From positions 17,422,001-17,486,000 of the forward strand of contig OZ024743.1 of assembly GCA_964016885.1 (NCBI GenBank): DNA of 64,000 nucleotides. Direction: 5' to 3'. The stretch comes from Eledone cirrhosa. Taxonomy: Eukaryota. Every line of letters starts with the position of its first letter. Position 1 is the stretch's first letter. Shown piece after piece: positions 5,217 through 64,000 of this stretch. Both the position numbers and the translations under genes were made by a program. The notes below the pieces were generated by a model, which was not told the DNA's origin, made no database searches, and was given only the letters and a program-made list of their open reading frames with translations.

Positions 5217-6338
5217 TTTTATTAATAATATAATAAAAATCGTAAATTCTGAATAGAAGGCTTTTTTACCAGATATATGAGGGTTTATTTTCTTAAGTAA
5301 TATCAATCAGAATAGATTGATAATATGTACATCGTCAAATTTCACCAGCAAGTATTATTCCATATTACGTACATCACCGATTCTTCTTCATACAATATTC
5401 AATTTATAATGCTTTTCGAGTACGAGGTACCTCTAAGGCTATATATATATATATAGAGAGAGAGATATGTGTGTGTATATGTATATATAAATACATACTA
5501 TCTGGCCCGTCTGGCTGGTGTCCGGCTAGGTATGCCTGACCCCACCACACCACTGCAAAGATACCACACACCCTCCCGTATCACATTGTCCTTCCGACTT
5601 CGTAGCAAAGGAGAGGGCAAAACCCGAAGAACAAATTATACTACATCAGCACAGTCTGAGGACTCATGCAACAGCCAGTCGTCCCTCTGTTTCTCTCTCT
5701 CTTCTCTCCTCTATTACCCGCTTGACCGTCCCTCTGTTTCTCTCTGTCACTCTCCCTCTCTCCCCTCTCTCAACTCTCTCTGTTTAAATGTGTGTAGTGC
5801 GTAGTTTTACTAATCTGTCTCTTTCACTGTCTCTCTTTCACTGTCTCTCTTCCACTCTGCGTCTCTCTAAGAGGGTTCGCGCGCCTTTTGATGTATGTAT
5901 TACCTGCTTGTGTGTTGACCTAATTTGGATAAGGTTATCCTTTTAAAATAAACAATGTTTATGATAAAATGTAGCGGTAATTTGAACAAATATAAAAGAA
6001 GACGATCTATTATGGAGAGAGGGAAGAGCGACAGGGAGAGTAAAGCAGTTAAATTATAGAGAGGAGCAACAGATGCGAGCGAAGCCGATCTATTATAGAG
6101 AGAGGGAAGAGCGACAGAGAGAGTAAAGATAAGCAATTATAGTGAGGTGTGTACGATACATACATAATACATACATACGACGTCAGCTATTTCTAGTGGC
6201 AGGACATTGATCTGTCCACCCCTGCCTTCTGTCTTTACACACGGCACTAGACAAAGTTGGTTCCGTCCTCATTCACTCTCATGCGGGAACAGTTTTGTAT
6301 GGCGCCAGTTTGTGATTTGAACTCAGGAATTTCATATT

Positions 6339-6421
6339 CCTTCTGACGAGAATCCCCTTCTCAATGGTAGTCCGCCTCGATTATCCATTTATCTTGTGAT
6401 TTGAAACCGCGCGGTAAGGGT
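6339..6421 (+). ncRNA. Type I hammerhead ribozyme, family A1 copy 1
   Basis: CCTT-CTGACGA-GAATC...GATTT-GAAA-CCGCGCGG-TA-AGGG; palindromic helix III; predicted cleavage after GUA at 6416. Confidence 0.8.
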
Positions 6422-6825
6422 ACATATAGTAAGTACAGCGAACTTTTTAAAATTTATTTAACACTTTTTCTCTATTTGCTAAACCTTGATTTTATATGTT
6501 CTGGCTCGTTAATCTATTAACCTGCCATAGAATGACATTGGCATACGGTTGGATAATACTTGTGTCCCTATATGTATTTTCTACACGTAGGAACACATAC
6601 TTTATTATGATTAATCTCCCCTAGGCTTGAGATAACATTTTGGTCGTTTGAACTGCTGCTATTTCTAGTGACAGGACATTGACCTGTCCGTCCCTGCCTT
6701 CTGTCTTTACACACGGCACTAGACAAAATTGGTTCCTTCCTCATTCACTCTCATTCGGGAACAGTTTTGTATGGCGCCAGTTTGTGATTTGAACTCGGGA
6801 ATTTTATATTCTCCGAGCGAGAAGA

Positions 6826-6909
6826 ACCTTCTGACGAGAATCCCCTTCTCAATGATGGTCCGCCTGGATTATCCATTTATTTTATGATTTGAAACCGCGC
6901 GCTAAGGGT
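6826..6909 (+). ncRNA. Type I hammerhead ribozyme, family A1 copy 2
   Basis: ACCTT-CTGACGA-GAATC...GATTT-GAAA-CCGCGCGC-TA-AGGGT; one helix III mismatch. Confidence 0.7.
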
Positions 6910-6982
6910 ACATATAGTAAGTACACCGAACCTTTTAAAACTTATTTTAAAACTTTTTCTCTATTTCCTAAACCTTGATGTT

Positions 6983-8341: not shown

Positions 8342-8404
<63 letters not shown>

Positions 8405-8411
<7 letters not shown>

Positions 8412-9350
8412 AATTAGTATATCTAGTAACATATATATACACAGATACATATTTATGCTAGCAAATATATAGGTTTTGTCTCAGTAACTTTGTGGTTCAA
8501 TGCATGAGGATGCAGAACAATAATATGAGAGACGTAAAATAAGAAAATTATAAAATTAACTTACTTACTAAACTTTCACTCCAACTAATTAGTTTCTGAA
8601 AGGGAATAAACATAGTTTCCTAAGAAACGTACTGAATTATTTTTGTATAAGTTCCCTGTGTCGACGTATTGCCTGGAAACTTAGCTGAGAATAGACTTCC
8701 CTGATGACGAAAGGCTTCTCCGTACGGTTCTCAGGAAACTGTTTATTCCCTTTCAGAAACTAATTAGTTGGAGTGAAATTTTAGTAAGTAAGTTAATTTT
8801 ATAATTTTCTTATTTTACGTCTCTCATATTATTGTTCTGCATCCCCATGCATTGAACCACAAAGTTACTAAGACAAAACCTATATATTTGCTAGCATAAA
8901 TATGTATCTGTGTATATATATGTTACTAGATATACTAATTCTTTATAATTATCTCCAAATTATTTTGTCGAGCAAAAATTGGACAAAACTGCTACTATAG
9001 TAACGGTCCGGCCGCTGTCTTCTTAACAAACCACTCCTCTCTGATTGATCTCGATGTCACGTGATTGATTCTTTTGAATTTGCCACCGACGCAGTAGGCA
9101 GTGATTTTTTCAATGGCTTAGAATTTAGTCCACGCATTGCTTTTTTCCATCCACTGAATTATTTTTGTATAAGTTCCCTGTGTCCACGTATTGCCTGGAA
9201 ACTTAGCTGAGAATAGACTTCCCTGATGCCGAAAGGCTTCTCCGTACGTTTCTTAGGAAACTATGTTTATTCCCTTTCAGAAACTAATTAGTTGGAGTGA
9301 AATTTTAGTAGGTAAGTTAATTTTATAAGTTTCTTATTTTACGTCTCTCA
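8405..9350 (+). mobile_element. Retrozyme-like family B1: inverted 5' segment (8405-8631) plus tandem ~524 nt unit, between (TA)n tracts
   Basis: 8405-8631 is the reverse complement of ~8722-8946; 8631-8827 repeats at 9153-9350; HHR at each junction. Confidence 0.85.
8695..8774 (+). ncRNA. Type I hammerhead, family B1 (second copy at 9217-9298 has core CTGATGC)
   Basis: ACTTCC-CTGATGA-C-GAAAGG...CCTTTC-A-GAAA-CTAATTAG-TT-GGAGT; palindromic helix III; GUU triplet. Confidence 0.72.
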
Positions 9351-9370
9351 TATATATATATATATATATA

Positions 9371-10047
9371 TATGATTCATCGAGCGCTTGCCACACATAT
9401 CGGACGTTGATTTTCGTTAATTCCTGAGCTGAAAACGATTCTCGCTAATTTATATTTGTATTAATCTCCAGAGTCTAGCTATTGAGCAGTTAATTTTATT
9501 GATTTTTTCAGTTACTTATATTGACTGTTGAATAGCTCTGTTATATTTAACCATTCTGTCGAGAGCTTTATTCGATTTGTGATATTTTGCATTCTAGCAA
9601 TAATACACAACTGAATCATTCGCTTAATAGAGGTGTTACCTCCCTTGCTGAATCCCACGAGGGGTCAGTAATAGCCACATTATCTATAGCATCTTGGAGC
9701 AAAAACCCGTTGATAACACGACTGCCTTGTTCATCATCTCACCAGAAGCCCAACATTCTTTATGTAGGCGGACAGTAACTGATTTGGAGTCGCAGAAACC
9801 AATACTGGATTTTACCATCAGTCCAGGGTCCGGGAAAGTATCAACACATATATTTTTATTGTTTGACCCGAATTACTTGGTCGTTTTGTTTTGGCTGTGC
9901 GGATGATATGTTTAATCATCATCTCAGTGTGTTTGGCCCTTAACGTATGTTGTAGCTCTGATTCATATGATTCATCGAGCGCTTGCCACACATATCGGAC
10001 GTTGATTTTCGTTAATTCCTGAGCTGAAAACGATTCTCGCTAATTTA

Positions 10048-10051
<4 letters not shown>
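9371..10051. mobile_element. ~680 bp non-coding insertion in (TA)n with ~85 bp terminal direct repeats (595 nt period)
   Basis: 9371-9457 matches 9966-10052; (TA)n on both sides; no canonical HHR found. Confidence 0.7.
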
Positions 10052-10106
<55 letters not shown>

Positions 10107-10285
10107 GGATATGTGTTCCTACACGCACAAAGCGCTAAGGGACACATGTATTGTCCAACCATATGCCAATGTGGTTCAATGGCAGGTTAATAAATTAACG
10201 AGCCAGAACATATATAATCAGGTTTAGCAAATAATGAAAAAGTTTCAAAATAAATTTTAAAAAATTGACTTTACTTACTATAGTT

Positions 10286-10369
10286 ACCTTTACCGAATCG
10301 GTTTCGAATCTCAAAAATAAACGGAGACCATACGGCCTTCATTGCAAAGAAAGATTCTCGTCAGAAGGT
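10286..10369 (-). ncRNA. Type I hammerhead, family A2 (inverted copy)
   Basis: Reverse complement of the 10837-10921 motif; core intact. Confidence 0.82.
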
Positions 10370-10836
10370 TCTTTTCATTCGAAGAATATGAAATTCTTGA
10401 ATTTAAATTACGAACTAGCGTTATCCAAAACTGTTCCCGAGATGAGAGTAAATGAAGTGGAATCAATTTTTTCAAGGGCCGAAAGTAAAGATAGAGGCAG
10501 AGGGAGGTAGGTCAATCGGCCACCACTATCACTAGCAGCAGTCGGAACGACCAAATTTGTTCTCAACATATAGGAGATTAGTAATAATAGGATATTCCTA
10601 CACGCACAAAGCGCTAAGGTATTACTATTCTCCTCAATGTTGAGAAAAAATTTGGTCGTTCCGACTGCTGCTAGTGATAGTGGTGGCCGATTGACCTACC
10701 TCCCTCTGCCTCTATCTTTACTTTCGGCTCTTGAAAAAATTGATTCCACTTCATTTACTCTCATCTCGGGAACAGTTTTGGATAGCGCTAGTTCGTAATT
10801 TAAATTCAAGAATTTTATATTCTTCGAATGAAAAGA

Positions 10837-10921
10837 ACCTTCTGACGAGAATCTTTCTTTGCAACGAAGGCCGTATGGTCTCCGTCTATTTTTTGAGATT
10901 CGAAACCGATTCGGTAAAGGT
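10837..10921 (+). ncRNA. Type I hammerhead, family A2
   Basis: ACCTT-CTGACGA-GAATCT...AGATTC-GAAA-CCGATTCGG-TA-AAGGT; perfect helix I and helix II base; canonical core; GUA at 10916. Confidence 0.88.
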
Positions 10922-11319
10922 AACTATAGTAAGTAAAGTCAATTTTTTAAAATTTATTTTGAAACTTTTTCATTATTTGCTAAACCTGGTTATATATGTT
11001 CTGGCTCGTTAATTTATTAACCTGCCATTGAACCACATTGGCATATGGTTGGACAATACATGTGTGCCTTAGCGCTTTGTGCGTGTAGGAACACATATCC
11101 TATTATTACTATTCTCCTCTATGTTGAGAAAAAATATGGTCGTTCCGACTGCTGCTAGTTATAGTGGTGGCCGATTGACCTACCTCCCTCTGCCTCTATC
11201 TTTACTTTCGGCCCTTGAAAAAATTGATTCCACTTCATTTACTCTCATCTCGGGAACAGATTTGGATAGCGCTAGTTCGTAATTTAATTCAAGAATTTTA
11301 TATACTTCGAATGAAAAGA

Positions 11320-11403
11320 ACCTTCTGACGAGAATCTTTCTTTGCAACGAAGACCGTATGGTCTCCGTTTATTTTTGAGATTCGAAACCGATTCGGTAAA
11401 GGT
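11320..11403 (+). ncRNA. Type I hammerhead, family A2 (second tandem copy)
   Basis: Same motif; GUA at 11398, 482 nt after the previous site. Confidence 0.88.
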
Positions 11404-11470
11404 AGCTATAGTAAGTAAAGTCAATTTTTTAAAATTTATTTTGAAACTTTTTCATTATTTGCTAAACCTG

Positions 11471-11567
<97 letters not shown>

Positions 11568-11589
11568 GTATATATATATATATATATAT

Positions 11590-18327: not shown

Positions 18328-19097
18328 TCAACCAAAACACAAACTACACATATACACACACGCTACATACGTACGAACCCGCATACTCACACACACGCAA
18401 AACTCACGTATACACATAACCATATGCACATGTACCAGTATATACAATATAATACATACGCCTATACCATATACAAGCAAATATACGTACGAGAAAGTAT
18501 ACGTCCCTTCACAAAACATACAGGTAATATAGAGTATTTCCAGGGCTTCAGCGGCGCAGAGGTCGCATGGTCTTTTATATCCGTTATTCGATCTAGCCCT
18601 AGCTAGGATCTCCCAGTGTAATTTATATTGGGTGTAGTTGACTTTTAGACTCCAGATATAAGCTGAAAGTGACATCACGTTCTTTCTTAAAGGGTTAAGA
18701 AAAGAATGGGTATGCATGTACAGACGCTGCTTGAATCTATTGGCGGTTAATCCTATGTAGCCGGTACGGGACGTGGGTGATGCAACATTACATTTGTAGA
18801 CAATGTTACTAGAGTTACGGATAGGGGCAATGAACCCGATTCCTACAATTACAGTTAGTACTAGCTTCATGGTTGCACGTGTTCCTACGGCTAGCTAATT
18901 TAGCTAAATTTGAAGCTGTGATGTTATGTGCAAGGTTAGGAGTGGTAGAGTAGAAATATTAATGGTATTTCTATTAACAATTGTATTATATTTATGTGCT
19001 GGGGGAAATGCTTCATAAGAAGGGAGAGAAAGATCTTAGCTAATGGTGTGGCCATGTCCATATTATATGGGGGGTTATACCATATAATGTGTCGGGA
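18328..19097 (-). pseudogene. PLE 3' fragment (linker plus GIY-YIG endonuclease), decayed
   Basis: NIVYKCNV...YIGLTANRFKQR...H...LSAYIWSLK...W...CDLCAAE; upstream IWYNP motif near 19080. Confidence 0.8.
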
Positions 19098-21919: not shown

Positions 21920-21989
21920 TATTTTATTATGCGCATTTCAAAACAAACATCATCATCGGATAATATCTGCGTTCTCATCAGATAAAATA
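21920..21989 (-). ncRNA. Type I hammerhead of the fold-back PLE (mirror copy at 24374-24444 has a mutated triplet)
   Basis: TATTTTAT-CTGATGA-long helix II-GAAA-TGCGCA-TA-ATAAAATA; 8 bp perfect helix I; palindromic helix III; AUA triplet. Confidence 0.82.
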
Positions 21990-22373
21990 GGGAGACATGA
22001 TATGAAGCTTAAAAAATACTTGTGAGCAGTGAAGTTTTAAATCAACATATGAAAAATAAACTAAGATGGATATGTGAGATTTTGAAAAAAATGAGGGGGG
22101 GGGTAGGAAAAGGTAAGGAAGAGGAAGAAAAAAAAGTAAAGGATGGCGGGGGAGGAGTATAAGAAGGAAGGATGAGAGAGGAGAAGAAATGGGTGATAGA
22201 GAGAGAGAAATAGCCTTTACAACTGAGAAAACATTGTCTCACAGAGAGAAATTTAAAAACCGTTTGAAGATAATACATAATTTAGAAGATTTTGAAATTA
22301 AACGTTAATGAGGTTTATGCATGGAGAAAAAGGAATTAAGAATGGTATTAAATTATATTGAAGGGTTTAATAA

Positions 22374-22842: not shown

Positions 22843-23211
22843 ATGGTAGGTTTAAAACGAGCACGAGATACTAATTCTTTTACCTATTTCGGTTCCACTA
22901 CCACTTCCTTCAAAGCTAGATTTTATAATCACAAAACGTCTCTTAAATACCAACTTAAAAGAACTAACACGGCACTCTCGGAACTCATATGGTCCTTTAA
23001 AGACAAAAATATTAACTATAACATCTCTTGGAGGAAGGTTTGCTCCGCCTTTCCTTACCTGAATTCTTCCCTATCCAGAACATGTAATCTCTGCCTAGCC
23101 AATACATTTACCATTATATCTAATTTCAATTCTATAATAAATAGACGCACAGATTTATTTTCGCTCTGCTTGCATAAATCCCATAGAACATTCCATAAAG
23201 TATACAGCTAA
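22843..23211 (+). pseudogene. GIY-YIG endonuclease C-terminal remnant of a PLE
   Basis: YxGxT...FKxR..NH, LS..IW..K and CxLC motifs shared with the fragments at 18328 and 63570. Confidence 0.8.
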
Positions 23212-26842: not shown

Positions 26843-27850
26843 TTAGATTTGTCTGGCGTCGGAACGAATGTGTGTGGGCGTCCAGCGAGTCTTAAAACTA
26901 TTAGAAGTCATCCCGATGTACGAGTTTCTTTTTTCATCGGGGCCTGAGAGTACATCGCATATATACACGAGATCTTTTTTTAGACAGTTGTTGTTGAGAG
27001 GGCAGGTCGTCTTATCAGGGCAATTGCAGTTGCTATCGGTTGCTGGATGGGCTTCGGAAAAAGTATACTTATTTAGCTTCTTGATGTTGTTGTTGGCTAA
27101 GTTTCTAGCTAGATTAGGTGTGGTAGAGTAAGAGAGTCTAATGGTATTCTTATTAAGGATAGTATAGTACCTATGTTGGGTGGGGAAGTATTTTTGTAAG
27201 AGAGTGAAGAACATTTTAGCTACAGGTGTTGAAACTTCACGGTTGAAGGGGGGGGGGGGGTTGTACCAGCTAATGTGCCTTCGCCTATTCTTCCTGGGTG
27301 GGCGTGGGGCTATAGTAAGGTAGGTGATCTTATCTCTAAAGCCGCTGCGGGCCAAGGCCTCGTTGTAATAGGGGGCTGCTGCTCTAAAGATATCTTCATT
27401 GGCGGCGAGGCTAGATATCCTAATGGAGACACTTTTTACTAGGTTGTCTAATATATTTTTGGGGTGGTTAGAATTAACGTCTATATATCTAAGGGATTCA
27501 TTTGGTTTGTGGTACGGGTAGTAAAGAGAAGTTTCTAAGTCGAGGGTAACGTCTAGGAAGTTAGCTTTAGTTAAGTTCGAATCTAAGGTAATCCTAAGGC
27601 CTAAGTTTTTAAAGAAGGTGTAAAGGTTTTTCCTGAACCCATCCGTTGTCGTGGGGTTGAATTTGTGGAGAGCAAAGAGGCCGTCATCTCGGTAGAGACC
27701 GCCGGAGAGGCCTGTGAAGAGGGTCTTCAACCTGTGGAGGATGAACAGACCCACAAGTTCACTAATTTCAGCTGAGTCGTTAGCACCCATGCTAACGTCG
27801 AAGGGGGTCTCAGATTTGTTGTTGATCCAGTGGGATCTGTCATGGTAAAG
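26843..27850 (-). pseudogene. PLE reverse transcriptase C-terminal half, thumb and start of GIY-YIG (5'-truncated, frameshifted)
   Basis: FDVSMGANDSAEISELVG, LYRDDG, FLDVTL, PYHKPN..LRYIDVNSNHP, WYNPP, CNC...CPL..NC...LVYIC...YIGMT. Confidence 0.9.
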
Positions 27851-29074
27851 ACGTTACCCTCGACTTAGAAACTTCCCTTTACTACCCGTACCACAAACCT
27901 AATGAATCCCTTAGATATATAGATGTTAATTCTAACCACCCCAAAAATATATTAGACAACCTAGTAAAAAGTGTCTCCATTAGGATATCTAGCCTCGCCG
28001 CCAATTAATATATCTTTAGAGCAGCAGCCCCCTATTACAACGAGGCCTTGGCCCGCAGCGGCTTTAGAGATAAGATCACCTACCTTACTATAGCCCCACG
28101 CCCACCCAGGAAGAATAGGCGAAGGCACATTAGCTGGTACAACCCCCCCTTCAACCGAGAACTTTCAACACCTGTAGCTAAAATGTTCTTCACTCTCTTA
28201 CAAAAATACTTCCCCACCCAACATAGGTACTATACTATCCTTAATAAGAATACCATTAGACTCTCTTACTACCTCACCTAATTTAGCTAGAAACTTAGCC
28301 AACAACAACATCAAGAAGCTAAATAAGTCTACTGTCCCCTCCCCCCTTCCCATTTCCGTCCCTCCATCTCTCATTATTACCCTCTTTCCTCCCCTGCTAT
28401 CTCTCATTATTACCTTCTTTCCTCCCCTCCAGGTCTTATATATTGTGTTGTATGCCTCTGAGTAAAGTTCCGTGGCCGCACACAGAAATTCACGTATATA
28501 CCTGCTCATGTTTGCATACGCGCAGTTATGAACTGCTGCACGCACACGTTCATGATTTATTTATCTATTTAACTGTATATTTATTTATTTATTTATTTAG
28601 TTACTTTATTTACTTATTTATTTATTTATCCATTTATTTATTTATTTGTTTATTTATTTACTTATTTACTGGTTTATTTGTTTATCTGTTTGTTTGTTTG
28701 TTTGTTAGTTAACTCATTCATTTATTTATTAATTTATGAGTGAATGATTAGGTAATGAATAGATAAGGGATAACAGATAGGTAACGAATAGTGAATGGTA
28801 AATAGTAAGTAATAAATAATAAATAGTAATTAATTACTTGATGATATTAATAACTTAATAGTGACATTAATTATTGTATCCTCTATCAGGCCCAGTTTAA
28901 AATTTTAAAATTTATAATTAAAATTTGTCCCACTACCTTTATACTATAGACACATGTATGAGTGCGAACGAGTGCGTGTTTGTGCATATGCGTCTATGTG
29001 TACTTATTTGTATGTATGTATGTGTATGTATGCGTGTTTGCTTGTAAATGTGTATGTGTGTGTATGTATATATG

Positions 29075-31365: not shown

Positions 31366-32683
31366 CATGGTGAGGACGATATTTGTCGCAATTTTCAACT
31401 GCTAATTTGATGCAATTTTCTTTTACTTCCGCTGTCACATTGTTGGAATCCGCGCCGGGAGGACAAATAAGGAAATGTCCGCCTTCATAAAACAATGACT
31501 ACATTTACATTATTTATTTTCAGAATGATTGATTATGAATAATTTTGAACCTCCAAATTTGTGGAAGAGACACGGAGTTCTTCTTGGAATCCGCGCCGGG
31601 AGGACAAATAAGGAAATTTCCGACTTTCTCAGCGTCAGCAGGAGAATGGTGGAAAAGGTCAGAAAGGAATTGGAAGATTCAGGATTCGACTACGCAACAG
31701 CATCAGAGAGGAAAACACATGATCGACGATCTGACGCCTGCTGAACGCCCGAGTTCGTCGCTGAAGTTCAGGATATCATCAACAATGAACCTAGCAAGTC
31801 GATGCGTGCCATTACAAGGGAGAAAAGCGTGGATGAAAAGATCATTAGGCAGGTGGTACATGAAGACATTTGCTACGTTTCATACAAGATGATGAAAGGA
31901 CAATTTCTGTCAAAGGCGATGCAAGAAAAGCGACTGAAGCACGCAAAGAAGCTGATCAACAAGTTGAAACACCCACTGGACCCAGGCATGCTGCGGTTTT
32001 TCTCCGACATGAAACACTTCTGCCAAGACCAGAAGATCAACTCCCAGAGAAACAGTTTGTTCGCTGCCTCATCCAAAGACGTGCCCAGAGTCATGCAGAC
32101 AAAGTTTCCAGCGACAACATTGGTCTTAGGTGTCGTCAGCATCAAGGTGACGTCATGCCACCTCACCTCTTCCGTGAGGGCCTCAAGCTGAACACCGATG
32201 GCTACATTCGCGGTCTGAGCGAGGTAGTAAAGCCCTGGATCGACCAGGTAGCTGCAGTTAGGCCGTACATGCCATACCAGCCGAAAGACCCAAGACTGGC
32301 TGTCAGAGAACTTCGTCGACCACACTTCACCTGACATCTGGCCTGCCAGCTCGCCTGAGTGCAACACCTTCGACTTTTTTATGTGAGGCGCAGTGGAACA
32401 AGACACCAACAGATCTAGCTGCAATACGAAAGAAGATCTGAATGCCATGATCACAAGTGCCTTTAGGGCCTAAGTCAAGGGATAGTGACGAAGGCCTGAA
32501 GCCGCTTCTGAGGCCGCCTTGAGGCCGTCATCAACGCCAATGGCGGGTTTATCGAGTAAGATCGAAAGAACAAGTCATGAAGACAAACTGACCCAAATTT
32601 GATAAATAAATCTTAAAAAATAAAACTACTGTGTTATTTCTTCCTAGACATTAATCTTGCGAACAAATATCGTTCGCACCCTG
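31366..32683 (+). mobile_element. Full-length but inactivated Tc1/mariner transposon (maT/DD37D-like)
   Basis: ~27 bp TIRs (caNggtgNgNacgatatttgt..cgcaa), TA flanks; transposase remnants with HTH, FFSD, VLGVVS and WPASSPECNTFDFF; stops and frameshifts. Confidence 0.9.
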
Positions 32684-41596: not shown

Positions 41597-41806
41597 TAAT
41601 GTATAAAAATCAATACAATATAATTACCTCATTACCAGAGGTTTCCCGAATGAGGCGAATACGAAATAAACGTCTTCATTCGTTCGTCAGACGAGGCAAT
41701 ATATTGCCTCGTCTGACGAACGAATGAAGACGTTTATTTCGTATTCGCCTCATTCGGGAAACCTCTGGTAATGAGGTAATTATATTGTATTGATTTTTAT
41801 ACATTA
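41597..41806. repeat. Perfect 105 bp-arm palindrome carrying two complete hammerheads back to back
   Basis: Centre at 41701/41702; plus-strand HHR 41707-41776; minus-strand mirror 41627-41696. Confidence 0.9.
41707..41776 (+). ncRNA. Type I hammerhead ribozyme
   Basis: CCTCGT-CTGACGA-A-CGAATGA...TCATTCG-G-GAAA-CC(tct)GG-TA-ATGAGG; GUA triplet. Confidence 0.78.
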
Positions 41807-41964
41807 TATATATTGTTATACTTTGGGAGGGTCATGTTGCCAATAAGAAACACACGCACCAGTTGCTATCACTTAAAATTTATTATAATCAATTTATAAA
41901 TTTAGGAATTTATAAATTTCCGGTTGGTTGGTTGGTTCCACAACCATGTAGTTGTTTATATATT

Positions 41965-42007
41965 GTCAAAGTTCTTTCGTCACACATTATGTGACCTCTT
42001 CAGTGAC
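41965..42007 (-). ncRNA. Minimal type I hammerhead in the PLE 3' region
   Basis: GTCA-CTGAAGA-G-GTCACAT(aat)GTGTGAC-GAAA-GAAC-TT-TGAC. Confidence 0.72.
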
Positions 42008-42210
42008 TGGGGATACTTTTCTTTGTTTTTGTGCCTCTCCTTTGTTCTCTCCTACGCCATTTTGTTTCTGTGTGTCTGTGTTGTGCGCTCAGTCTGCGCA
42101 TGCGCCACATCCGGGTGTCTGTGTGTGTTTATATTCGTTTATTTATTTGTTTATTTACATGTTACAGGTTGGTTGTTTGTTCTATTGGCGTGTCTGTTTT
42201 CATTTTGTCC

Positions 42211-45200
42211 TTAATTGTAAGTTGTGATGTTTCTGTTCCACTCATATTTTCTATTTAATTTTGGTTGTAATTCTTTTATGTTTATTGCCTCTGTGATTTG
42301 TCTAAACATTGCGTCTTTTCTGTGTGTAGATTCTATTTTTATTTCTATGTTCTCTAATTTACCCTTATGTTCTATTTTAGCATGTTTGTAGAGTACAGAT
42401 GATTCTTTACTCTCTTGAAGGTCTCGCCAGTGTTCATTTATCCGTTCCCCTACACTGCGAGCTGTTTCACCTATGTACACTATATTTTTGTCTCTACATT
42501 GTCCTTCAGTACATCTTATGCTATATACTACATTTCTAGTGTTACAGTTAATATGGGGGCTTAATTTACAGGTTATACATTTCTTATCTATACAGGGGGG
42601 TCTTTGAAAAGGGTATGTCTTGCTAATAAGTGTTTTTACGGAGGTACCTGATCTTTCTACTATCTTAATATTGAGTTCATGTTTATCTAGGGCCCTTCTA
42701 TATTTGTAAGCTAATTCACCTCTAGGGGTTGTATCGATGAACATTACACTCTGGTATTTATTGATATCATACCATGAGTTTATTCTATTAGTCTTATTCC
42801 TAGTTCTTTCTATTCTATTCCAAAATTTGCTCCTATACAAGGGGCAGGTTCCATTTGTGTCATTATTTACCATTTTTCCCATTTGGTTCTGGCTCCTCTA
42901 TACACTCTGATTTTATCTCTCTGATTGTAACCATAGAACTGCATACGGTGGATGAAGTGTTGTATGTGTCTCTCTAGTTCTTCGGGGTTGCACATGTGGG
43001 ACACGTTTCTCATCACCCGTACCAAATCCGCAATCAGTATGTTGATTTTGGTATGGTCCGAAACAGCTGAGTTTCGGTGGATCAGATATTTGGAAGTCAT
43101 GGATTTGGCATAATGGGAATGGAGGATTTGTTTTTTATTATTAATGGTATCTAACCAGAGCTCTGTGTCTAGTACAGGTAATCGATGTTTGGGGTGTTTA
43201 CTTGGGTAGTATATAGTAACTCTAATACTCTGGTGGATGGAGTTAGCTATTTGCTGGATGCTTTCCATTGTGTTTTTCTCTAATTCCTGACTGTTCTCTA
43301 GTGGGGGTGTTTTAACTACGATGGTTATGTCATCAACGTAGCGGGAGTACATTATGAGGGTTAAGGGTCTTCTAATTGTTCTTTAAGTTTAAGTTTAAGT
43401 CTACTGTCCCACCATACTATGAATAAGTTAGCTATGTGCCTGCAATGCTAACACCAATGGCTGCTCCTTCCTCTTGGGCATATGTTTTTCCATTAAATTT
43501 GAACATATGTTCCTTAAGGGTTAATTTTATGCTGGCCCCCACCGCATATGCAATCATTTTCTTCAGTTCATCGTTGTTTTCGGGTGTCCGTATGGCTCTG
43601 GTCCACCCGTTCCATCTATATGTGTGGGTTTTCTTGGCCATTGAGGTAATGGTAGGTGGTCTGCCTCTTGCTGATCTTGTAGGGCACAGGCTGCTAAGGT
43701 CATATGTGTCTAGGTAATTATTACTATAGGTAAGTTTGAGTAGGAGTCCCAGCTCACTGGTATCAATCCCACGGAACTCAACATTGTTCTCACTGATCAT
43801 TTCTACGCATTTCTCCACAGCAAAATCCACGTCAATAGATGGATACAGGGACACAACATCCATGCTACCTATTATGCAGTTTGTTAGGTCCCTAGATCGG
43901 TTACTCTCGCTGATTCTGCTGAGGAGGTCCTCCGTGCTGGCACATACATCTGGGGACATTTCAATCATGGGGCGTATGATCAGGGAGAGGAAGTAGGACA
44001 GTCTGTAGTTACTAGCCATGTTAGCTCCACAGACTGGCCGTGTTGGTGGTCCCGTAACAGGGTCACTGCCCGTTTTATGGTATTTTCGAAGCCCATACAA
44101 CGCCGGCACGTCATTGTTCCAGGCCTGGAAGTTGATTGCAGTCCTTTTGTTGGGCTGCATTATATTCGTCCACATCACCATATGGGCATTGAGGGCTTTT
44201 TCTCTATCCTCATGCTCATGTGGTGTTACTTCTCTTGTGTTAGTGATGTGGGGTTGCATTGCCTGGATGTAGTTTGGCAGGCTGTCAACCGACATTCTAC
44301 CAGACTTGTCTGTTGGAAAGCATGCTATCTCTCCATTACGCGAGCGCTGCATGAGCTTACGCAAGCCATTTGCAGATTTGTCTCCCAGTTGCTGGGCCTC
44401 CATTCTATTATGCTTCTTGCTATACTGTTCTATAATATTTCTAAGTTCGGATTTAGCTAAACTAAATTGTGCTCTGTGTGTTCATCGACCTGCGACGGCA
44501 ATTGCGTGCGTTTGTTAAATGGTAAAGTCGTGGCATGGACTCGTCACAGGTCGAACGACTTATCGGAGGGATTATAAAACGTAGAGTTTCAGGCTGTTGC
44601 TTTATGTGTACTAGTGCCATTGTTATTGTTAGTTGTGTTGTTTCTATTTCTATTTCCACCAACAACCTCATGGTTGTTTCTATGTCTCTCATTATTACTC
44701 CTGTCTCTTTCCACTGGCTCATTATTATTATCTACTCTATTTTGTGTGTCTGTGTGTTCGTCTTGGTTATTTTATTTGTCCATAGTCTCCCTTCCCCTTT
44801 TAATCCTATTACCTTCCCTTATTTCTGTGCTACTGTCATTACCTGTTTTCTGTGTCTGTGTGTTTGTTAAGATTGTGGTGGTGGTGAGAGGCATTGAATG
44901 TGTGTGTGCTGATGTTGTTGTTGATGTGTGCTGTTGTTGATGTGTGTTGTTGTTGTTGTCTCCGCGTGTGTTATTATTGTTATGTGTGTTGTTATTGTTG
45001 TTTGTGTCTGCGTATCTGTTGTTGTTGTTTCTGAGTATGTTATTAATGTTGATATGTGTGTTGTTGTTATTGTTGTTTGTGTCTGTGTGTCTGTTGTTGT
45101 TGGGATGTGTGTTGTATATTGGTGTGCGTATGTTGTTACCTTTGTTTTTGTTTTTGTTTTTGAGGCTCCAACGTAATTTTGTAAATGATTTTTCTATTTC

Positions 45201-45300
45201 TGACAAACAACTAATCATATTTACCTTCTTGAATGTCGCATATTTAGGCGGTAGTTGTAATATAGATCATTCATTAGGGTCTACTGCAGTGTTGCGGATT
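42211..45300 (-). pseudogene. Frameshifted PLE polyprotein (RT-thumb-GIY-YIG)
   Basis: PTDKSG, LYGLRKYHK, RPVC, SMDVVSLYPSI, QEEGAAIG, RYVDD, LPVLD, C..KCITC, NVVYSIRC...YIGET, RQITEA in ORFs 43432-44403, 42867-43352 and 42211-42882. Confidence 0.93.
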
Positions 45301-46965
45301 TGGTATGGGTGATGAGAAACGTGTCACGCATGTGCAACCCCATATATCTAGAGAGACACATACAACACTTCATCCACCGTATGCAGTTCTCTGGTTACAA
45401 TCAGAGAGATAAAATCAGAGTGTATAGAGGAGCCAGAACCAAATGGAAAAAAAATGGTAAATAATGACACAAATGGGACCTACCCCTTGTATAGGAGCAC
45501 ATTTTGGAATAAAATAGAAAGAACTAGGAATAAGGCTAATAGAATAAACTCATGGTATGATAGCAATAAATACCAGAGTTTAATGTTCATCGATACAACC
45601 CCTAGAGGTGAATTAGCTTACAAATTTAGAAGGGCCCTAGATAAACATAAACTCAATATTAAGATAGTAGAACGACCAGGTACCTCCGTAAAAACACTTA
45701 TTAGCAAGACATACACTTTTTAAAGACCCCCTGTATAGATAAGAAAGGTATAACCTGTAAATTAAGACCACATATTAACTGTAAAACTAGAAATGTAGTA
45801 TCTAGCATAAGATGTACTGAAGGACAATGTAGAGACAAAGATATAGTGTACATAGGTAAGACAGCTCGTAGTGTAAATGAACACTGGCGAGACCCTCAAG
45901 ATAGTAAAGAATCACCTGTACTCTACCAACATGCTAAAATAGAACATAAGGGTAAATTAGAGAACATAGAAATAAAAATAGAATCTACACACAGAAAAGA
46001 CGCAATGTTTAGACAAATCACAGAGGCAATAAACATAAAAGAATTACAACCAAAATTAAATAGAAAATATGATTGGAACAGCAACATCACAACTTACAAT
46101 TATGGACAAAATGAAAACAGACACGCACATATAACAAACAACCAACCTGTAACATGTAAATAAACAAATAAATAAACGAATATAAACACACACAGACACC
46201 CGGATGTGGCGCATGCGCAGACTGAGCACACAACACACACACAGAAACAAAATGGCGTAGGACAGAACAAAGGAGAGGCACACAAACAAAGAAAAGAATC
46301 CCAGTCACTGAAGAGGTCACATAATGTGTGACGAAAGGACGTTGACAATATATAAACAACTACCTGTTTGTGGAACCAAACAACCAACCGGAAATTTATA
46401 AATTCCTAAATTTATAAATTGATTATAATAAATTGAAGTTAAAGCAACTGGTGCGTGTGTTTCTTATTGGCAACATGACCCTCCCAAAGTATAACAATAT
46501 CGGTTTCAACACACGTTTTCAGATAAAGAATCTTGCTAAACAAATTCAAAAACGAAATATATATATATATATATATATATTTCAGTTTAGTAGTCAGTTA
46601 CAAATATTAAGCTCTAAGAAAATACTTCTGAGCATTACATTACAATTTAAAAATATATATGAACTAACACTAATGTGTTTTTTTTTGCAAAATGACAATC
46701 ATGTTTTATGTGTCCTTATCTTTAATTATTGTAACTGATTTTGGTCTTATATGTATCGGCTTTTTGCGGTGACGCTTCGTCCAAGCACACCACTCTTCTA
46801 AGTCATGCATGCTACACATGGATCGTTCTTGTGATATAGGTCGGTAGAGTTTATACTATTGATCTAATTCCTCTTTATAACGCCCTGGTGAGTCCTGCAA
46901 TTATGCAAGGACGAAACACTGTCAGCAAATAAAATTAATTGATGATGTAAGCGCTCTTTGTTTTC

Positions 46966-50291: not shown

Positions 50292-51004
50292 TAATAAATT
50301 ATCGTTCTAATGGAATTAGGTTATATAATTGTTATTTTATAAATGATCTTATAAAGATCATTGTAAGATGTATAAAAAATATTTTTCAGATTTTTAGTAT
50401 AAACAACTACAAAAACAATCAGTATTAAATAAATATATTTTACATAATAATTATTAGAGTTGAATTAATAAAATTTAAATATTACATACAAATAGTCTAA
50501 CATAATAATAAAAAAATAATCTAACATAATAATAATAAAATAATATAACATAAAACGAACAATAATGTAGACAAATATACAGGTAAATATGATACAAACA
50601 ATATTATAAGCATGGTCTAACGAACTGAAAAAAAAAGTAGTTAATATAAATTAAAAAAGTCATATATAAATTAACAATATAACTTACCAAAACGAGAGCA
50701 ATATTCTGATGATAAACGACGAAATACAGGAGGAAGATTCGAAAGCGAAACGATAAATAAATGTGCAACAAAAGTGCGGATGCTTTTAAGCAACAATTAC
50801 TGACGTTGGTTGAATAGCCAATAAGACGATAACATTAGCCAATAAGACGATACATTACAAAACATGTTTGGCAGCGATCACCACGGCCCGCGACAGTCCT
50901 TGAATATATATAAGCTACGCGTATATGTCAAGACATGCAGACTTAAAACATTCTGTTGTTAGTCACTGCGTGTCTAACAGATACATATATACATACATAT
51001 ACAA

Positions 51005-51103: not shown

Positions 51104-51165
<62 letters not shown>

Positions 51166-51170
<5 letters not shown>

Positions 51171-52497
51171 AAGAATGTATATCTAGTAACATATATATAC
51201 ATACAAATGAATATCGATGCTAGCAAATATATAGGTTTTGTCTTAATAACATTGTGGTTCAATGCATGGGGTTGCAGAACAATAATATAAGAGACGTAAG
51301 ATAAGAAAGTTATAAAATTAACTTACTTACTAAAATATCACTTCCAACTAATTAGTTTCTGGAACGGAGTAGATACATCTTCCGAAGAAGGTGTAGAGAA
51401 ACATCCCGTCATCCGGAAAGTCTATTCTCATATAAGTTCCAGGCAAATCGAGGACACTGGAAGCTTATTAAAAAATAAATCAGTGAATAGGAAATAGCAA
51501 AGCGTGGACTTACTTCCAAGCCATTGAGAAAATCACTGCCTCTGTGTCTGTGGCAAATTCAAAAAGAATCGAACACGTGACACCGAGGTCAATCGGTGGA
51601 AAGTGGGTTGTTAATAAGACAGCGGCCAGCCTACTACCGTAGAAGCAGTCATGGCCAGTATTGCTCGACAAATATTTTGGAGATAATAATAAAGTATTTA
51701 TATCTAGTAACATATATATATACATACAAATGCATATCGATGCTAGCAAATATATAGGTTTTGTCTTAATAACATTGCGGTTCAATGCATGGGGTTGCAG
51801 AACAATAATATAAGAGACGTAAGATAAGAAAATTATAAAATTAACTTACTTACTAAAACTTACTTACTTGCAACTAATTAGTTTCTGGAATGGAGTAGAT
51901 ACATATTAACTAATTAGTTGGAAGTGATATTTTAGTGAGTAAGTTAATTTTATAATTTTCTTATCTTACGTCTCTTATATTATTGTTTTGCAACCCCATA
52001 CGTTGAACCACAATGTTATTAAGACAAAACCTATATATTTGCTAGCATCGATATGCATTTGTATGTATATATATATGTTACTAGATATAAATTATTTATT
52101 ATTATCTCAAAAATATTTGTCGAGCAATACTGGCCATGACTGCTTCTACGGTAGTAGGCTGGCCGCTGTCTTATTAACAACCCACTTTCCACCGATTGAC
52201 CTCGGTGTCACGTGTTCGATTCTTTTTGAATTTGCCACAGACACAGAAACAGTGATTTTCTCAATGGCTAGGAAGTAAGTCCACGCTTTGCTATTTCCTA
52301 TTCACTGATTTATTTTTTAATAAGCTTCCAGAGTCCTCGCTTTGCCTGGAAACTTATATGAGAATAGACTTTCCTGATGACGGGATGTTTCTCCACACCT
52401 TCTTCGGAAGATGTTTCTACTCCATTCCAGAAACTAATTAGTTGGAAGTGATATTTTAGTAAGTAAGTTAATTTTATAATTTTCTTATCTTACGTCT

Positions 52498-52500
<3 letters not shown>
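51166..52500 (+). mobile_element. Retrozyme-like family B2: inverted block longer than one unit (51166-51905) plus direct block (51908-52500), in (TA)n
   Basis: Homologous to 8405-9350; HHR at 52368-52449 (+) and 51340-51421 (-, core CGGATGA). Confidence 0.88.
52368..52449 (+). ncRNA. Type I hammerhead, family B2
   Basis: ACTTTC-CTGATGA-C-GGGAT...ATTCC-A-GAAA-CTAATTAG-TT-GGAAGT; apical CTTC-TTCG-GAAG hairpin in helix II. Confidence 0.75.
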
Positions 52501-52593
<93 letters not shown>

Positions 52594-52605
52594 TATAATA
52601 CATAC

Positions 52606-52646
<41 letters not shown>

Positions 52647-62135: not shown

Positions 62136-64000
62136 AAATAAATAAGTCAAATGTTTAAAATTTGGCTTCGATTATAACTGCTATATATATTTCGGTGACA
62201 GCCATCTTTGGCTGTGTCCTCTTCAGGCAGTCGGAATTAGTGTGGTAGAGACGAGTACACATGTTGTTTAGGTGTATAACTTTGTCAATACTCTGATATG
62301 CCCAGTTCCTGTTTGGGTTGTTATTTCACTGAGGAACTCGAATCATATGAATTTAAACAAACGAATTTCAGCGTCAAAGGGCCTCTTCTCCTCTCATTGG
62401 TCAGTTGTTAGAACATTCCTCGGTCAAAAGTCTATAGAAATTCGTTCTGAGGTAAGCCAGTCTGTAGTTGTTGTTCTTGTTATTGTTAGGTACATTCTCA
62501 TGTTGGTAGTGATGTTGTTGTTGGAGTCAGATTTGAAAAATGGTGATAAAGTGGTAGAAGGAATAAGATGGTAAAGGAACAAAATAAAATAAAATAACCG
62601 AATATAATGTGTGTGTGTTATACCCATCTCAATGCTATACAGATTTGTAAGGTCAAATTTCCCATTGGTCAGTTTTGAGAGCATTCCTCAGTCCAAAGTC
62701 TATATAAAATCTTTCTGGGGTGCGGCTCCCTATAGTGTTTGTGTTTGCTATTGTTAAGTACATCAGACCTCTACCCTTATTGTGTTAGTGTTGTTAGTGT
62801 TGTGATCAGCTTATGTCTTGCAGCTGCTGACAATTTAGAAGTATCTGTGTGTGTGTTTCTTCATCCTTCCTGCCACCATCTCCCGTGGTGGTGGTGGTAG
62901 TGGTGGTGCTTTTGTTCTGCCATGTATATGAAGAAATAGAAGGCAATAAAATGAAGAAAACAGAAAATAAATAATAAATAGAAAATAAATGAAAAAATTA
63001 ATGAAAAAGTAATGAAGATTACTGAAAAATGAATATGGAAAATGAAAAATTAAGATGAAAAGTGAAAGTAAAAATGAAGATTCAAATAAAATAAGATGAA
63101 ATGTGTGTGTGCTATAACCGATCTCAAGGTCAGAAATATGTTGCATAGATTGGTAGGAGGAACAAGATGGTAAAATAATAAAACCGAAAAGGATAATCGA
63201 ATAAAATGTGTGCGTGTGTTATAACCAATCTCAAGTTAAATATAAATATAAGGTGATACAGTGATGAAAACAGAAAGCAAATAACAAATGAATAATGAGA
63301 AATCAAAAATCAAAAATCAAAAATCAAAAATCAAGTAAATTAAAATGTGTGTGTGTTATAAAGGTGTTGGCCAAATTATAAAGGCTGTGTCAGAATCAAT
63401 CTCTAGGCTATCATGGTGTCTGCTCAGCCTGGGTTGGTCCCTATGGCTTGAGAGCAGTTCCCAACCTATGGTGTTGTTACTGCCCATATAGCTTGAGGGA
63501 GGTCTGGCCGACAGGTGTCTACACGTTCTGGAGAAGTCCCTATAGCTTGAGGGGTGTTCAGATCTTATCGTGTTGCTATTGTCCATTCTGTGGTTTATCA
63601 GGCCGCTTCCACCTCTTAGTATCTCGAGGGTCTCATTCAGACATAGTTTGCATATGCAAGATCCCCCTTTATCGGGTGGTACTTTCCTGATTATGGACCT
63701 GGCCAGAGAGTACGGGGTCCTGTCCAGCTTAAGCTTCCAGATGAGGTCAGAGAGAGTCGTACTTTTCCTTTTGGCCTCTTTATTGAAGGAATGGCGATGG
63801 TTCTACCAGCAGTCTTTAAAGCTCGTTGATGTGGCTCCTATGTAGAGGTATTTAAAGTTGGGGGTTTTAACCCTACAAACGTATACTAGGTTCTTCTTAA
63901 GGTATTCATTACCAAGGGCATGATTCGGGGTTTCTGCAGTTGTAGAGGGCGGTCGACCTCTGGGAGGTCGACGTCTGTATGCCTAGATTGGAGTTTCCGT
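62131..64000 (-). mobile_element. PLE 3' portion (GIY-YIG remnant ~63570-63940, long 3' region, hammerhead) ending in (TA)n; continues beyond the window
   Basis: Minus-strand NLVYVCRV...YIGATSTSFKDCW*NHRHSF...LSDLIWKLK...CKLCLNE. Confidence 0.8.
62177..62231 (-). ncRNA. Canonical-core type I hammerhead ribozyme
   Basis: ACTGC-CTGAAGA-GG..ACAGCCA(aaga)TGGCTGT..CC-GAAA-TATATA-TA-GCAGT; perfect helix I; palindromic helix III; AUA triplet. Confidence 0.85.

What the first reader, a model, noticed from the sequence alone, without database searches (positions are those of the whole stretch)
10103..11472. Family A2: 482 nt non-coding tandem unit delimited by intact hammerheads (candidate circular-RNA retrozyme)
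Seen: three near-identical HHRs with canonical core, perfect helix I (ACCTT/AAGGT), helix II base GAATCT/AGATTC and helix III CCG/CGG. Predicted GUA sites at 10916 and 11398 are 482 nt apart; there is no ORF and (TA)n lies on both flanks. Inference: a transcript would self-process to a unit-length monomer that could circularise and be copied by a PLE RT. Low divergence between copies suggests a recent insertion.
Basis: partly seen in the sequence, partly recalled or inferred. Interest (0 to 1): 0.85.

Follow-up and report, generated by a model that had tools for sequence, protein, structure and literature searches.

The report
Penelope-mobilised hammerhead retrozyme insertion
This is one of thousands of copies of a 482-base, protein-free mobile repeat with a predicted self-cutting RNA motif; its back-to-back arms and two fixed ends match those of a coding Penelope-like retrotransposon in the same genome, whose enzyme likely copies it, possibly from an RNA circle.

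Summary
Real, and mostly as described, with one correction: only two of the three hammerheads are in tandem; the third lies on the minus strand in an inverted arm. The insertion reads (TA)n, inverted 519-nt arm, forward 853-nt arm, (TA)n. The family is large (2,818 intact hammerheads of this build genome-wide, two families together) and non-coding; none of 132 sampled insertions shows a conserved ORF-to-unit junction, so it is not a solo pLTR as far as sampled. It fits the known non-LTR retrozymes. What is added: arms end at one of two fixed sites, 74 nt (A) or about 190 nt (B) past the cleavage site, and back-to-back insertions pair A with B (43 of 47). A coding Neptune-like Penelope element here does the same (+64/+199; 17 of 18). 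Most arms run through the ribozyme site (159 of 183) and young arrays of 9-12 units are clonal across both arms, which fits rolling-circle copying but does not exclude an uncut multimer. Cleavage, expression and circles are untested. The window copy is not among the youngest (pieces 2.5% apart). New member of a known kind, with useful mechanistic evidence.

The parts
10046..10103 (.). left (TA)n tract, target microsatellite
   Evidence: 173 of 183 arm 3' ends in the family abut TA
10101..10619 (-). inverted arm, 519 nt (1.08 units); 3' end is the B-type end at 10101-10105, 5' end at 10619; 4-nt deletion near 10590
10101..10216 (-). 116-nt tail (unit positions 1-116) present on this arm only; structured (z -2.5), ends after a hairpin
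   Evidence: folded from the internal copy 10975-11110
10286..10369 (-). type I hammerhead, predicted cleavage after GUA at 10291
10619..10620 (.). head-to-head junction of the two 5'-truncated arms (unit positions 77 and 114); position varies between loci
10620..11472 (+). forward tandem arm, 853 nt (1.77 units), ending at the A-type end
10837..10921 (+). type I hammerhead, predicted cleavage after 10916
10917..11398 (+). predicted self-processed monomer, 482 nt, 36.5% GC, no ORF over 53 aa
11320..11403 (+). type I hammerhead, predicted cleavage after 11398
11399..11472 (+). 74 nt between cleavage site and end A; with the first 80 nt of the tail, the best-conserved part of the unit (0.94-0.98 agreement among 7 subfamilies)
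11473..11589 (.). right (TA)n tract
6178..6980 (+). separate, older insertion of a sister subfamily (about 75% identical); hammerhead at core 6343 intact, the second (core near 6831) has a helix III mismatch

Best explanation
This is a non-coding tandem repeat of the non-LTR retrozyme kind that is likely spread in trans by the reverse transcriptase-endonuclease of a Neptune-type Penelope-like element, which would cut both strands of a (TA)n tract and start two cDNAs at two fixed sites of the RNA. Shown: the architecture (inverted arm plus tandem arm, both 3' ends on TA), two fixed ends 74 and about 190 nt past the hammerhead, A-with-B pairing, the same geometry in a coding Neptune-like element, no conserved ORF link, read-through of the ribozyme site, clonal young arrays. 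Inferred: one enzyme complex (probably a dimer) primes once at A and once at B on the same template type; the two cDNAs stop at variable points and are joined head to head, or only one arm is kept. Inferred with less support (about 55 in 100): the template is the hammerhead-cut, re-ligated 482-nt circle, read round more than once. Untested: transcription, cleavage, circularisation, and which Neptune family is the helper.
For: Two-arm insertions: 43 A/B, 4 A/A, 0 B/B of 47 with two canonical ends (0.50 expected if independent, p 1e-9); 11 of 12 in the sample drawn by the hammerhead 15-mer alone. Coding 830-aa element with RT, Cys linker and GIY-YIG: own minimal hammerhead, ends at +64 and about +199 into (TA)n, 17 A/B and 1 A/A of 18 resolved pairs out of 20 fetched. 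173 of 183 arm 3' ends abut TA; 159 of 183 cross a ribozyme site; 96 of 183 exceed 500 nt. Minor alleles are shared within an insertion: same arm 0.96 and 0.99, other arm 0.91 and 0.92, other loci 0.20 and 0.27 (pair counts dominated by long arrays). Arrays L101-L106 have only singleton variants (4, 1, 3, 1, 1, 2; none shared). Hammerhead pairing kept over 24% divergence: 91.4% of cells paired, 7 of 25 pairs with double changes, covariation 0.192 against 0.127 shuffled and at most 0.066 slid. Two loci (L143, L202) fuse a unit 5' end directly to a Neptune-type ORF piece on the same strand, as template switching would give. Literature: tail at one end and inverted arm are PLE hallmarks (PMC8557442); a PLE cuts and extends both strands and starts at two internal RNA sites (PMC11167929).
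Against: No significant sequence likeness to any coding PLE examined: unit profile against 62 PLE loci found only a nested copy; cleavage-to-B alignment 69/500 and 73/500 shuffles as good; tail-to-tail 55, 233, 12 and 279 of 1000, post hoc. So the helper rests on geometry. The tail (113-118 nt) is far longer than the 30-40 bp described for PLEs. L016 has 8 shared variants beside 28 singletons, L029 and L091 2 each, which points to local duplication, conversion or a mixed template. In vitro a PLE did not need hammerhead cleavage and used unprocessed RNA. Only 1 of 9 frog retrozyme dimers cleaved in vitro (bioRxiv 2026.07.22.740005). The monomer is only moderately self-paired (z -1.9; 57% paired as a circle). 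Three of the four sampling queries contain tail sequence. Clonality of long arrays could partly come from assembly polishing.
Confidence: 0.78

Rival explanations
1. Same helper and same two priming sites, but the template is an uncut linear multimer transcribed from a genomic array; the hammerhead is dispensable for insertion and long arrays come from long source arrays or later local expansion. This differs from the best explanation only in the template step.
For: Unprocessed RNA was the dominant substrate for an anole PLE in vitro. Read-through in 159 of 183 arms fits it equally. L016 shows variants shared by adjacent units.
Against: Arrays of 9-12 units with only singleton variants, and lineage alleles fixed across all units and both arms (L102 18 of 18, L104 15, L105 10, L107 11), need a unit-length bottleneck. 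Hammerhead structure is conserved with compensatory changes, so it is under selection.
Confidence: 0.35
2. The unit is the terminal repeat (pLTR) of a rare coding Penelope-like element, and these copies are 5'-truncated insertions of it.
For: It has every end feature of a PLE terminus. The sample is 132 insertions, mostly with about 1.5 kb of flank, against 2,818 hammerhead matches. In frogs 24 of 57 retrozyme families match known TEs, nearly all at PLE termini.
Against: Arms longer than one unit continue into another unit (96 of 183 over 500 nt). Of 28 loci with a PLE ORF hit in the flank, 10 have it upstream on the same strand; 8 are separated by a TA run and the other 2 join different PLE families at different places. 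The family fused in L202 has its own unrelated 1.4-kb 3' UTR and hammerhead. The 31 non-TA 5' flanks share nothing but missed unit pieces and one unrelated repeat match away from the junction.
Confidence: 0.08
3. A satellite-like DNA repeat spread by recombination or DNA-level rolling circle, the hammerhead being a relic.
For: Tandem arrays exist, and one locus is amplified inside a larger tandem repeat (C3 88.9 Mb).
Against: Dispersed copies with fixed 3' ends, variable 5' truncation, inversions and TA targeting are retroposition marks; the ribozyme covaries.
Confidence: 0.03

Closest known systems
Metazoan non-LTR retrozymes (Cervera and de la Pena 2020, PMC7229834; Li et al. bioRxiv 10.64898/2026.07.22.740005)
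   Same: Tandem non-coding units, one type I hammerhead each, GC under 50%, co-occurring with PLEs, proposed PLE mobilisation via circular RNA.
   Different: 482 nt is above the 150-450 bp of the 2020 paper (inside the 51-972 bp of the 2026 preprint). Helix I is 5 bp, helix II carries a 40-nt insert with an inner hairpin, helix III has 3 pairs beyond the core pair. The parts of those papers I read do not describe inverted arms, two fixed ends or A/B pairing. No pLTR homology to a coding PLE was found here. RNA not shown.
Penelope-like elements, Neptune clade (Craig et al. 2021, PMC8557442; Frangieh et al. 2024, PMC11167929; Arkhipova et al. 2013, PMC3846280)
   Same: Partial tandem plus inverted 5'-truncated arm, tail at one end only, microsatellite target, hammerhead upstream of two internal start sites.
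   Different: No ORF. Tail 113-118 nt (about 135 nt in the coding element here) instead of 30-40 bp. Hammerhead has a stable helix III rather than the minimal PLE form.
Non-autonomous Chlamys elements such as MRC1 (PMC8557442, passage)
   Same: Non-coding, multicopy head-to-tail insertions, PLE-dependent.
   Different: Those share 3' sequence with their autonomous partner and that clade lacks canonical hammerheads; here there is a hammerhead and no significant shared sequence.

Membership tests
non-LTR retrozyme | tandem units each with a complete type I hammerhead (at least two consecutive) | tested here: met
   two in tandem at 10837-10921 and 11320-11403; arrays up to 10 units elsewhere
non-LTR retrozyme | no protein coding | tested here: met
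   longest ATG frame 53 aa, linear or circular; no ORF of 120 aa in the interval
non-LTR retrozyme | short unit, GC under 50% | tested here: met
   482 nt, 36.5% GC; ranges
non-LTR retrozyme | dispersed family with conserved ribozyme structure | tested here: met
   9 clusters among 105 full units, up to 24% apart; covariation in 19 rows; 2,818 pattern matches, control 0 (includes a second family)
non-LTR retrozyme | self-cleavage at the predicted site | not testable with these tools
   needs an in vitro assay
non-LTR retrozyme | expressed as linear and circular monomer RNA | not testable with these tools
   needs RNA data from this organism
non-LTR retrozyme | highly self-paired monomer | tested here: inconclusive
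   z -1.94, 4 of 100 shuffles as good; 57% paired as a circle
non-LTR retrozyme | no primer-binding site or polypurine tract; target-site duplications longer than 4 bp when present | not tested
   PBS and PPT were not searched for; duplications cannot be read inside (TA)n
PLE-type insertion (works like) | partial tandem with adjacent inverted 5'-truncated copy | tested here: met
   52 of 132 loci scored two-armed, an undercount
PLE-type insertion (works like) | optional tail at one end only | tested here: met
   43 of 47 A/B; length 113-118 nt, not 30-40 bp
PLE-type insertion (works like) | microsatellite target | tested here: met
   173 of 183 arm 3' ends abut TA
coding PLE or its solo pLTR | RT plus GIY-YIG ORF attached at a fixed junction | tested here: not met
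   0 conserved junctions in 132 loci; 2 one-off fusions
coding PLE or its solo pLTR | sequence homology to the terminal repeat of a coding PLE | tested here: not met
   profiles against 62 PLE loci and L279; only four Neptune-type families were examined, of many in the genome

The most novel reading that the evidence does not exclude
One Neptune-type enzyme dimer primes both strands of a cut (TA)n tract at two fixed sites of a single ribozyme-made RNA circle and rolls round it, so that each insertion is a clonal, back-to-back array: a genomic record of rolling-circle target-primed reverse transcription of a circular RNA that shares end geometry, but no detectable ancestry, with its helper.
Probability: 0.35. 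Interest if true: 0.72.

Novelty: new member of a known kind. Interest (0 to 1): 0.5.

Why it matters
Animal retrozymes were proposed to be copied from RNA circles by Penelope-like enzymes, but the support in the papers read is co-occurrence and pLTR homology. Here the insertions themselves carry the PLE signature, and the strict pairing of the two ends (43 of 47 in the retrozyme, 17 of 18 in the coding element) turns the known 'tail at one end' into a rule that a mechanism must explain. A 482-nt substrate with two mapped start sites, next to many intact copies of an 830-aa Neptune-like ORF, makes two open questions testable in vitro: how PLEs make inverted insertions, and whether a circle is the template.

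Tried and rejected
Rfam at gathering score: 0 hits. Expression: no RNA holder listed; four runs of unknown kind laid as contigs only show the sequence is present and repetitive; neither bears on expression. Pfam did not recognise the PLE ORFs and there was no solved-structure match; 'Neptune-type' rests on visible RT, Cys-linker and GIY-YIG motifs and the clade definition, not on a tree. Search for an intermediate between the retrozyme tail and the Neptune tail: 22 matches, 21 with the retrozyme spacing and 1 with the Neptune spacing; their 12 loci were not examined further. Shared motifs between retrozyme and Neptune ends: noticed by eye, not significant overall. Pile-up of 5' ends at the cleavage site: 43 ends in +1..+36 against about 5 per 12 nt upstream, but no sharp stop at +1, and AT-rich microhomology and length decay confound it; inconclusive. 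Ribozyme-off switch in the circle: helix I is predicted absent in 26 of 48 natural monomers folded as circles (median probability 0.00, against 0.42 for a transcript cut at +8), but the alternative partner varies and the hairpin near end A has 0 of 21 pairs with double changes; a weak hint only. One search used a mis-registered structure and is void; one search replaces it. L110 is two separate insertions misaligned and was left out of the clonality argument. The array at C3 88.9 Mb is amplified inside a larger repeat and was left out of the counts. The divergent hammerhead family found is also non-coding in 8 of 8 loci looked at. Earlier findings: nothing returned.

Full report
1. What is in the window. 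The interval is bounded by (TA)n at 10046-10103 and 11473-11589. A motif scan with helix checks finds three matching type I hammerheads: two on the plus strand (cleavage after 10916 and 11398, 482 nt apart) and one on the minus strand (after 10291). Each folds into the three-helix form as its minimum-energy structure, though no better than shuffles, and Rfam has no hit. Self-comparison shows an inverted arm 10101-10619 and a forward arm 10620-11472 joined head to head. Numbering the unit from 10991 to 11472, the forward arm ends at position 482 (end A, 74 nt past the cleavage site) and the inverted arm runs 116 nt further (end B). There is no ORF over 53 aa, even on the monomer read as a circle. 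A sister copy, about 75% identical, lies at 6178-6980.

2. The family. The window lies in a 3.0-Gb genome. The 15-nt core occurs 1,454 times (control 1), a 24-nt tail motif 2,199 times (control 0) and a full hammerhead pattern 2,818 times (control 0, which also takes in a second, barely alignable family). I examined 132 non-redundant loci drawn by four queries. Their 105 full units fall into 9 clusters up to 24% apart, all 472-492 nt; agreement among the 7 larger clusters is highest around end A and the first 80 nt of the tail. In 19 hammerheads chosen across clusters, 91.4% of cells pair and 7 of 25 pairs change on both sides; covariation is 0.192 against 0.127 in shuffles and at most 0.066 when slid (related sequences inflate the shuffle test). 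A few rows carry a damaged helix III or cleavage triplet.

3. The ends. Of the 132 loci, 52 scored as two-armed, 79 as single-armed and 1 touched an edge. Of 47 two-armed loci with two canonical ends, 43 pair A with B, 4 are A/A and none B/B; independence predicts 0.50 (p 1e-9). By sample: 18 of 20, 11 of 12 (hammerhead 15-mer, the only query without tail sequence), 2 of 3 and 12 of 12. Single arms end at A (56), B (18) or elsewhere (5). 173 of 183 arm 3' ends abut TA, while 5' ends are spread over the unit. Some loci with a short second arm were scored single, so two-armed loci are undercounted.

4. Is it a solo pLTR? 96 of 183 arms exceed 500 nt and go on into another unit. Five PLE protein queries hit the flank of 28 of 132 loci; in 10 the hit is upstream on the same strand, in 8 of these across a TA run. 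The two exceptions, L143 and L202, fuse the unit to different Neptune-type ORFs at different points, and the family in L202 normally has an unrelated 3' UTR with its own hammerhead (one other copy read). They look like template-switch chimeras or deletions, not a conserved junction. Unit profiles find no homology in 62 coding-PLE loci beyond one nested copy. A rare coding parent is not excluded, since the sample is a few per cent of copies.

5. The likely helper. A PLE ORF beside one copy belongs to a very young family: 150 of 150 scored hits are 100% identical over 193 aa, many in 830-aa open frames, with a 6,060-bp period. [quoted passage not shown] It has a minimal hammerhead and two fixed ends at +64 and about +199 on (TA)n; of 20 back-to-back pairs fetched, 17 are A/B, 1 A/A and 2 unresolved. 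The geometry is that of the retrozyme, but sequence likeness is not significant. The helper is therefore inferred to be a Neptune-type element, not shown to be this family. The second hammerhead family has the same layout and is also non-coding in the 8 loci read.

6. The template. 159 of 183 arms cross a ribozyme site, so a cut linear monomer cannot be the template without jumps. Young arrays are clonal: L102 (10 plus 2 units) differs at 1 of 22,585 compared positions within arms and 10 of 9,048 between arms, against 0.7% to the nearest other locus; L101, L104 and L105 are alike. Lineage alleles are shared by both arms and variants in L101-L106 are all singletons, as expected if all units were made at once from one unit-length template. 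Against this: L016 has 8 shared variants, L029 and L091 2 each; polishing could flatten arrays; and a purified PLE used unprocessed RNA. I put the circle at about 55 in 100. In the window all 17 variant columns are specific to some pieces and pieces are 2.5% apart: older than the youngest arrays, younger than the sister subfamily (copies 91-94% identical).

7. Known systems. Papers seen: PMC7229834 parts 2-4 of 6; bioRxiv 10.64898/2026.07.22.740005 parts 1-3 of 5; PMC11167929 parts 1-3 of 4; PMC4209133 part 1 of 4; passages of PMC8557442 and PMC3846280. No supplements were opened; those of the preprint and of PMC7229834 could list related elements. Non-LTR retrozymes and their proposed dependence on PLEs are in print, and so are the inverted arm, the one-sided tail and two internal start sites for coding PLEs. 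Six searches turned up no paper whose listing or read text reports these insertion marks for a retrozyme, a tail of over 100 nt, or a count of end pairing; subscription journals are not covered.

8. Verdict. A real, ordinary-in-kind retrozyme insertion, a new member of a known kind. Its value is the family-level evidence: PLE-type two-site priming on a non-coding ribozyme repeat, with arrays that fit rolling-circle copying. Interest 0.5; 0.72 if the single-circle, two-primer reading is confirmed.

Noticed in passing
window 41624-41785 and 41810-46500: Palindromic head-to-head pair of hammerheads (cores 41690 minus, 41713 plus) at the end of a broken coding PLE (RT and GIY-YIG pieces 42211-44481, minus strand) with an inverted partial arm at 45292-46500. 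Its hammerhead differs from the finding's.
   Followed up: partly
window 9370-10056: Element between two TA tracts just left of the finding: a 92-nt direct repeat 595 bp apart. Looks like another 1.15-unit tandem insertion; no clear hammerhead seen.
   Followed up: partly
window 8345-9373 and 51106-52643: Another repeat family with tandem and inverted pieces and a degenerate hammerhead-like core near 9220.
   Followed up: no
window 26846-28333: Neptune-type PLE remnant in two inverted arms, member of a large family; further PLE pieces at 18532-19088, 22882-23193 and 63581-63901.
   Followed up: partly
window 21920-21990 (minus) and 50700-50765: Two more hammerhead-like motifs; the first resembles the minimal hammerhead in the 3' UTR of the Neptune-type family in L279.
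   Followed up: no
L099:1794-4283: Very young autonomous Neptune-like PLE: 830-aa ORF, 6,060-bp period, hammerhead with a roughly 110-nt helix II, 135-nt tail, strict A/B end pairing. A good candidate for biochemistry.
   Followed up: yes
L271-L278: Second non-coding hammerhead repeat, about 485 nt, barely alignable to the finding, with the same two-end layout (about +90 and +195) on (TA)n.
   Followed up: partly
L143:1260-2094 and L202:775-2778: Retrozyme units fused at their 5' end to Neptune-type ORF pieces on the same strand; possible template-switch chimeras.
   Followed up: partly
L031-L033: A retrozyme insertion amplified as part of a larger, multi-kb tandem repeat.
   Followed up: no
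window 31745-32188: Weak Tc1/mariner transposase HTH match, E 0.00045, below the Pfam cut-off.
   Followed up: no
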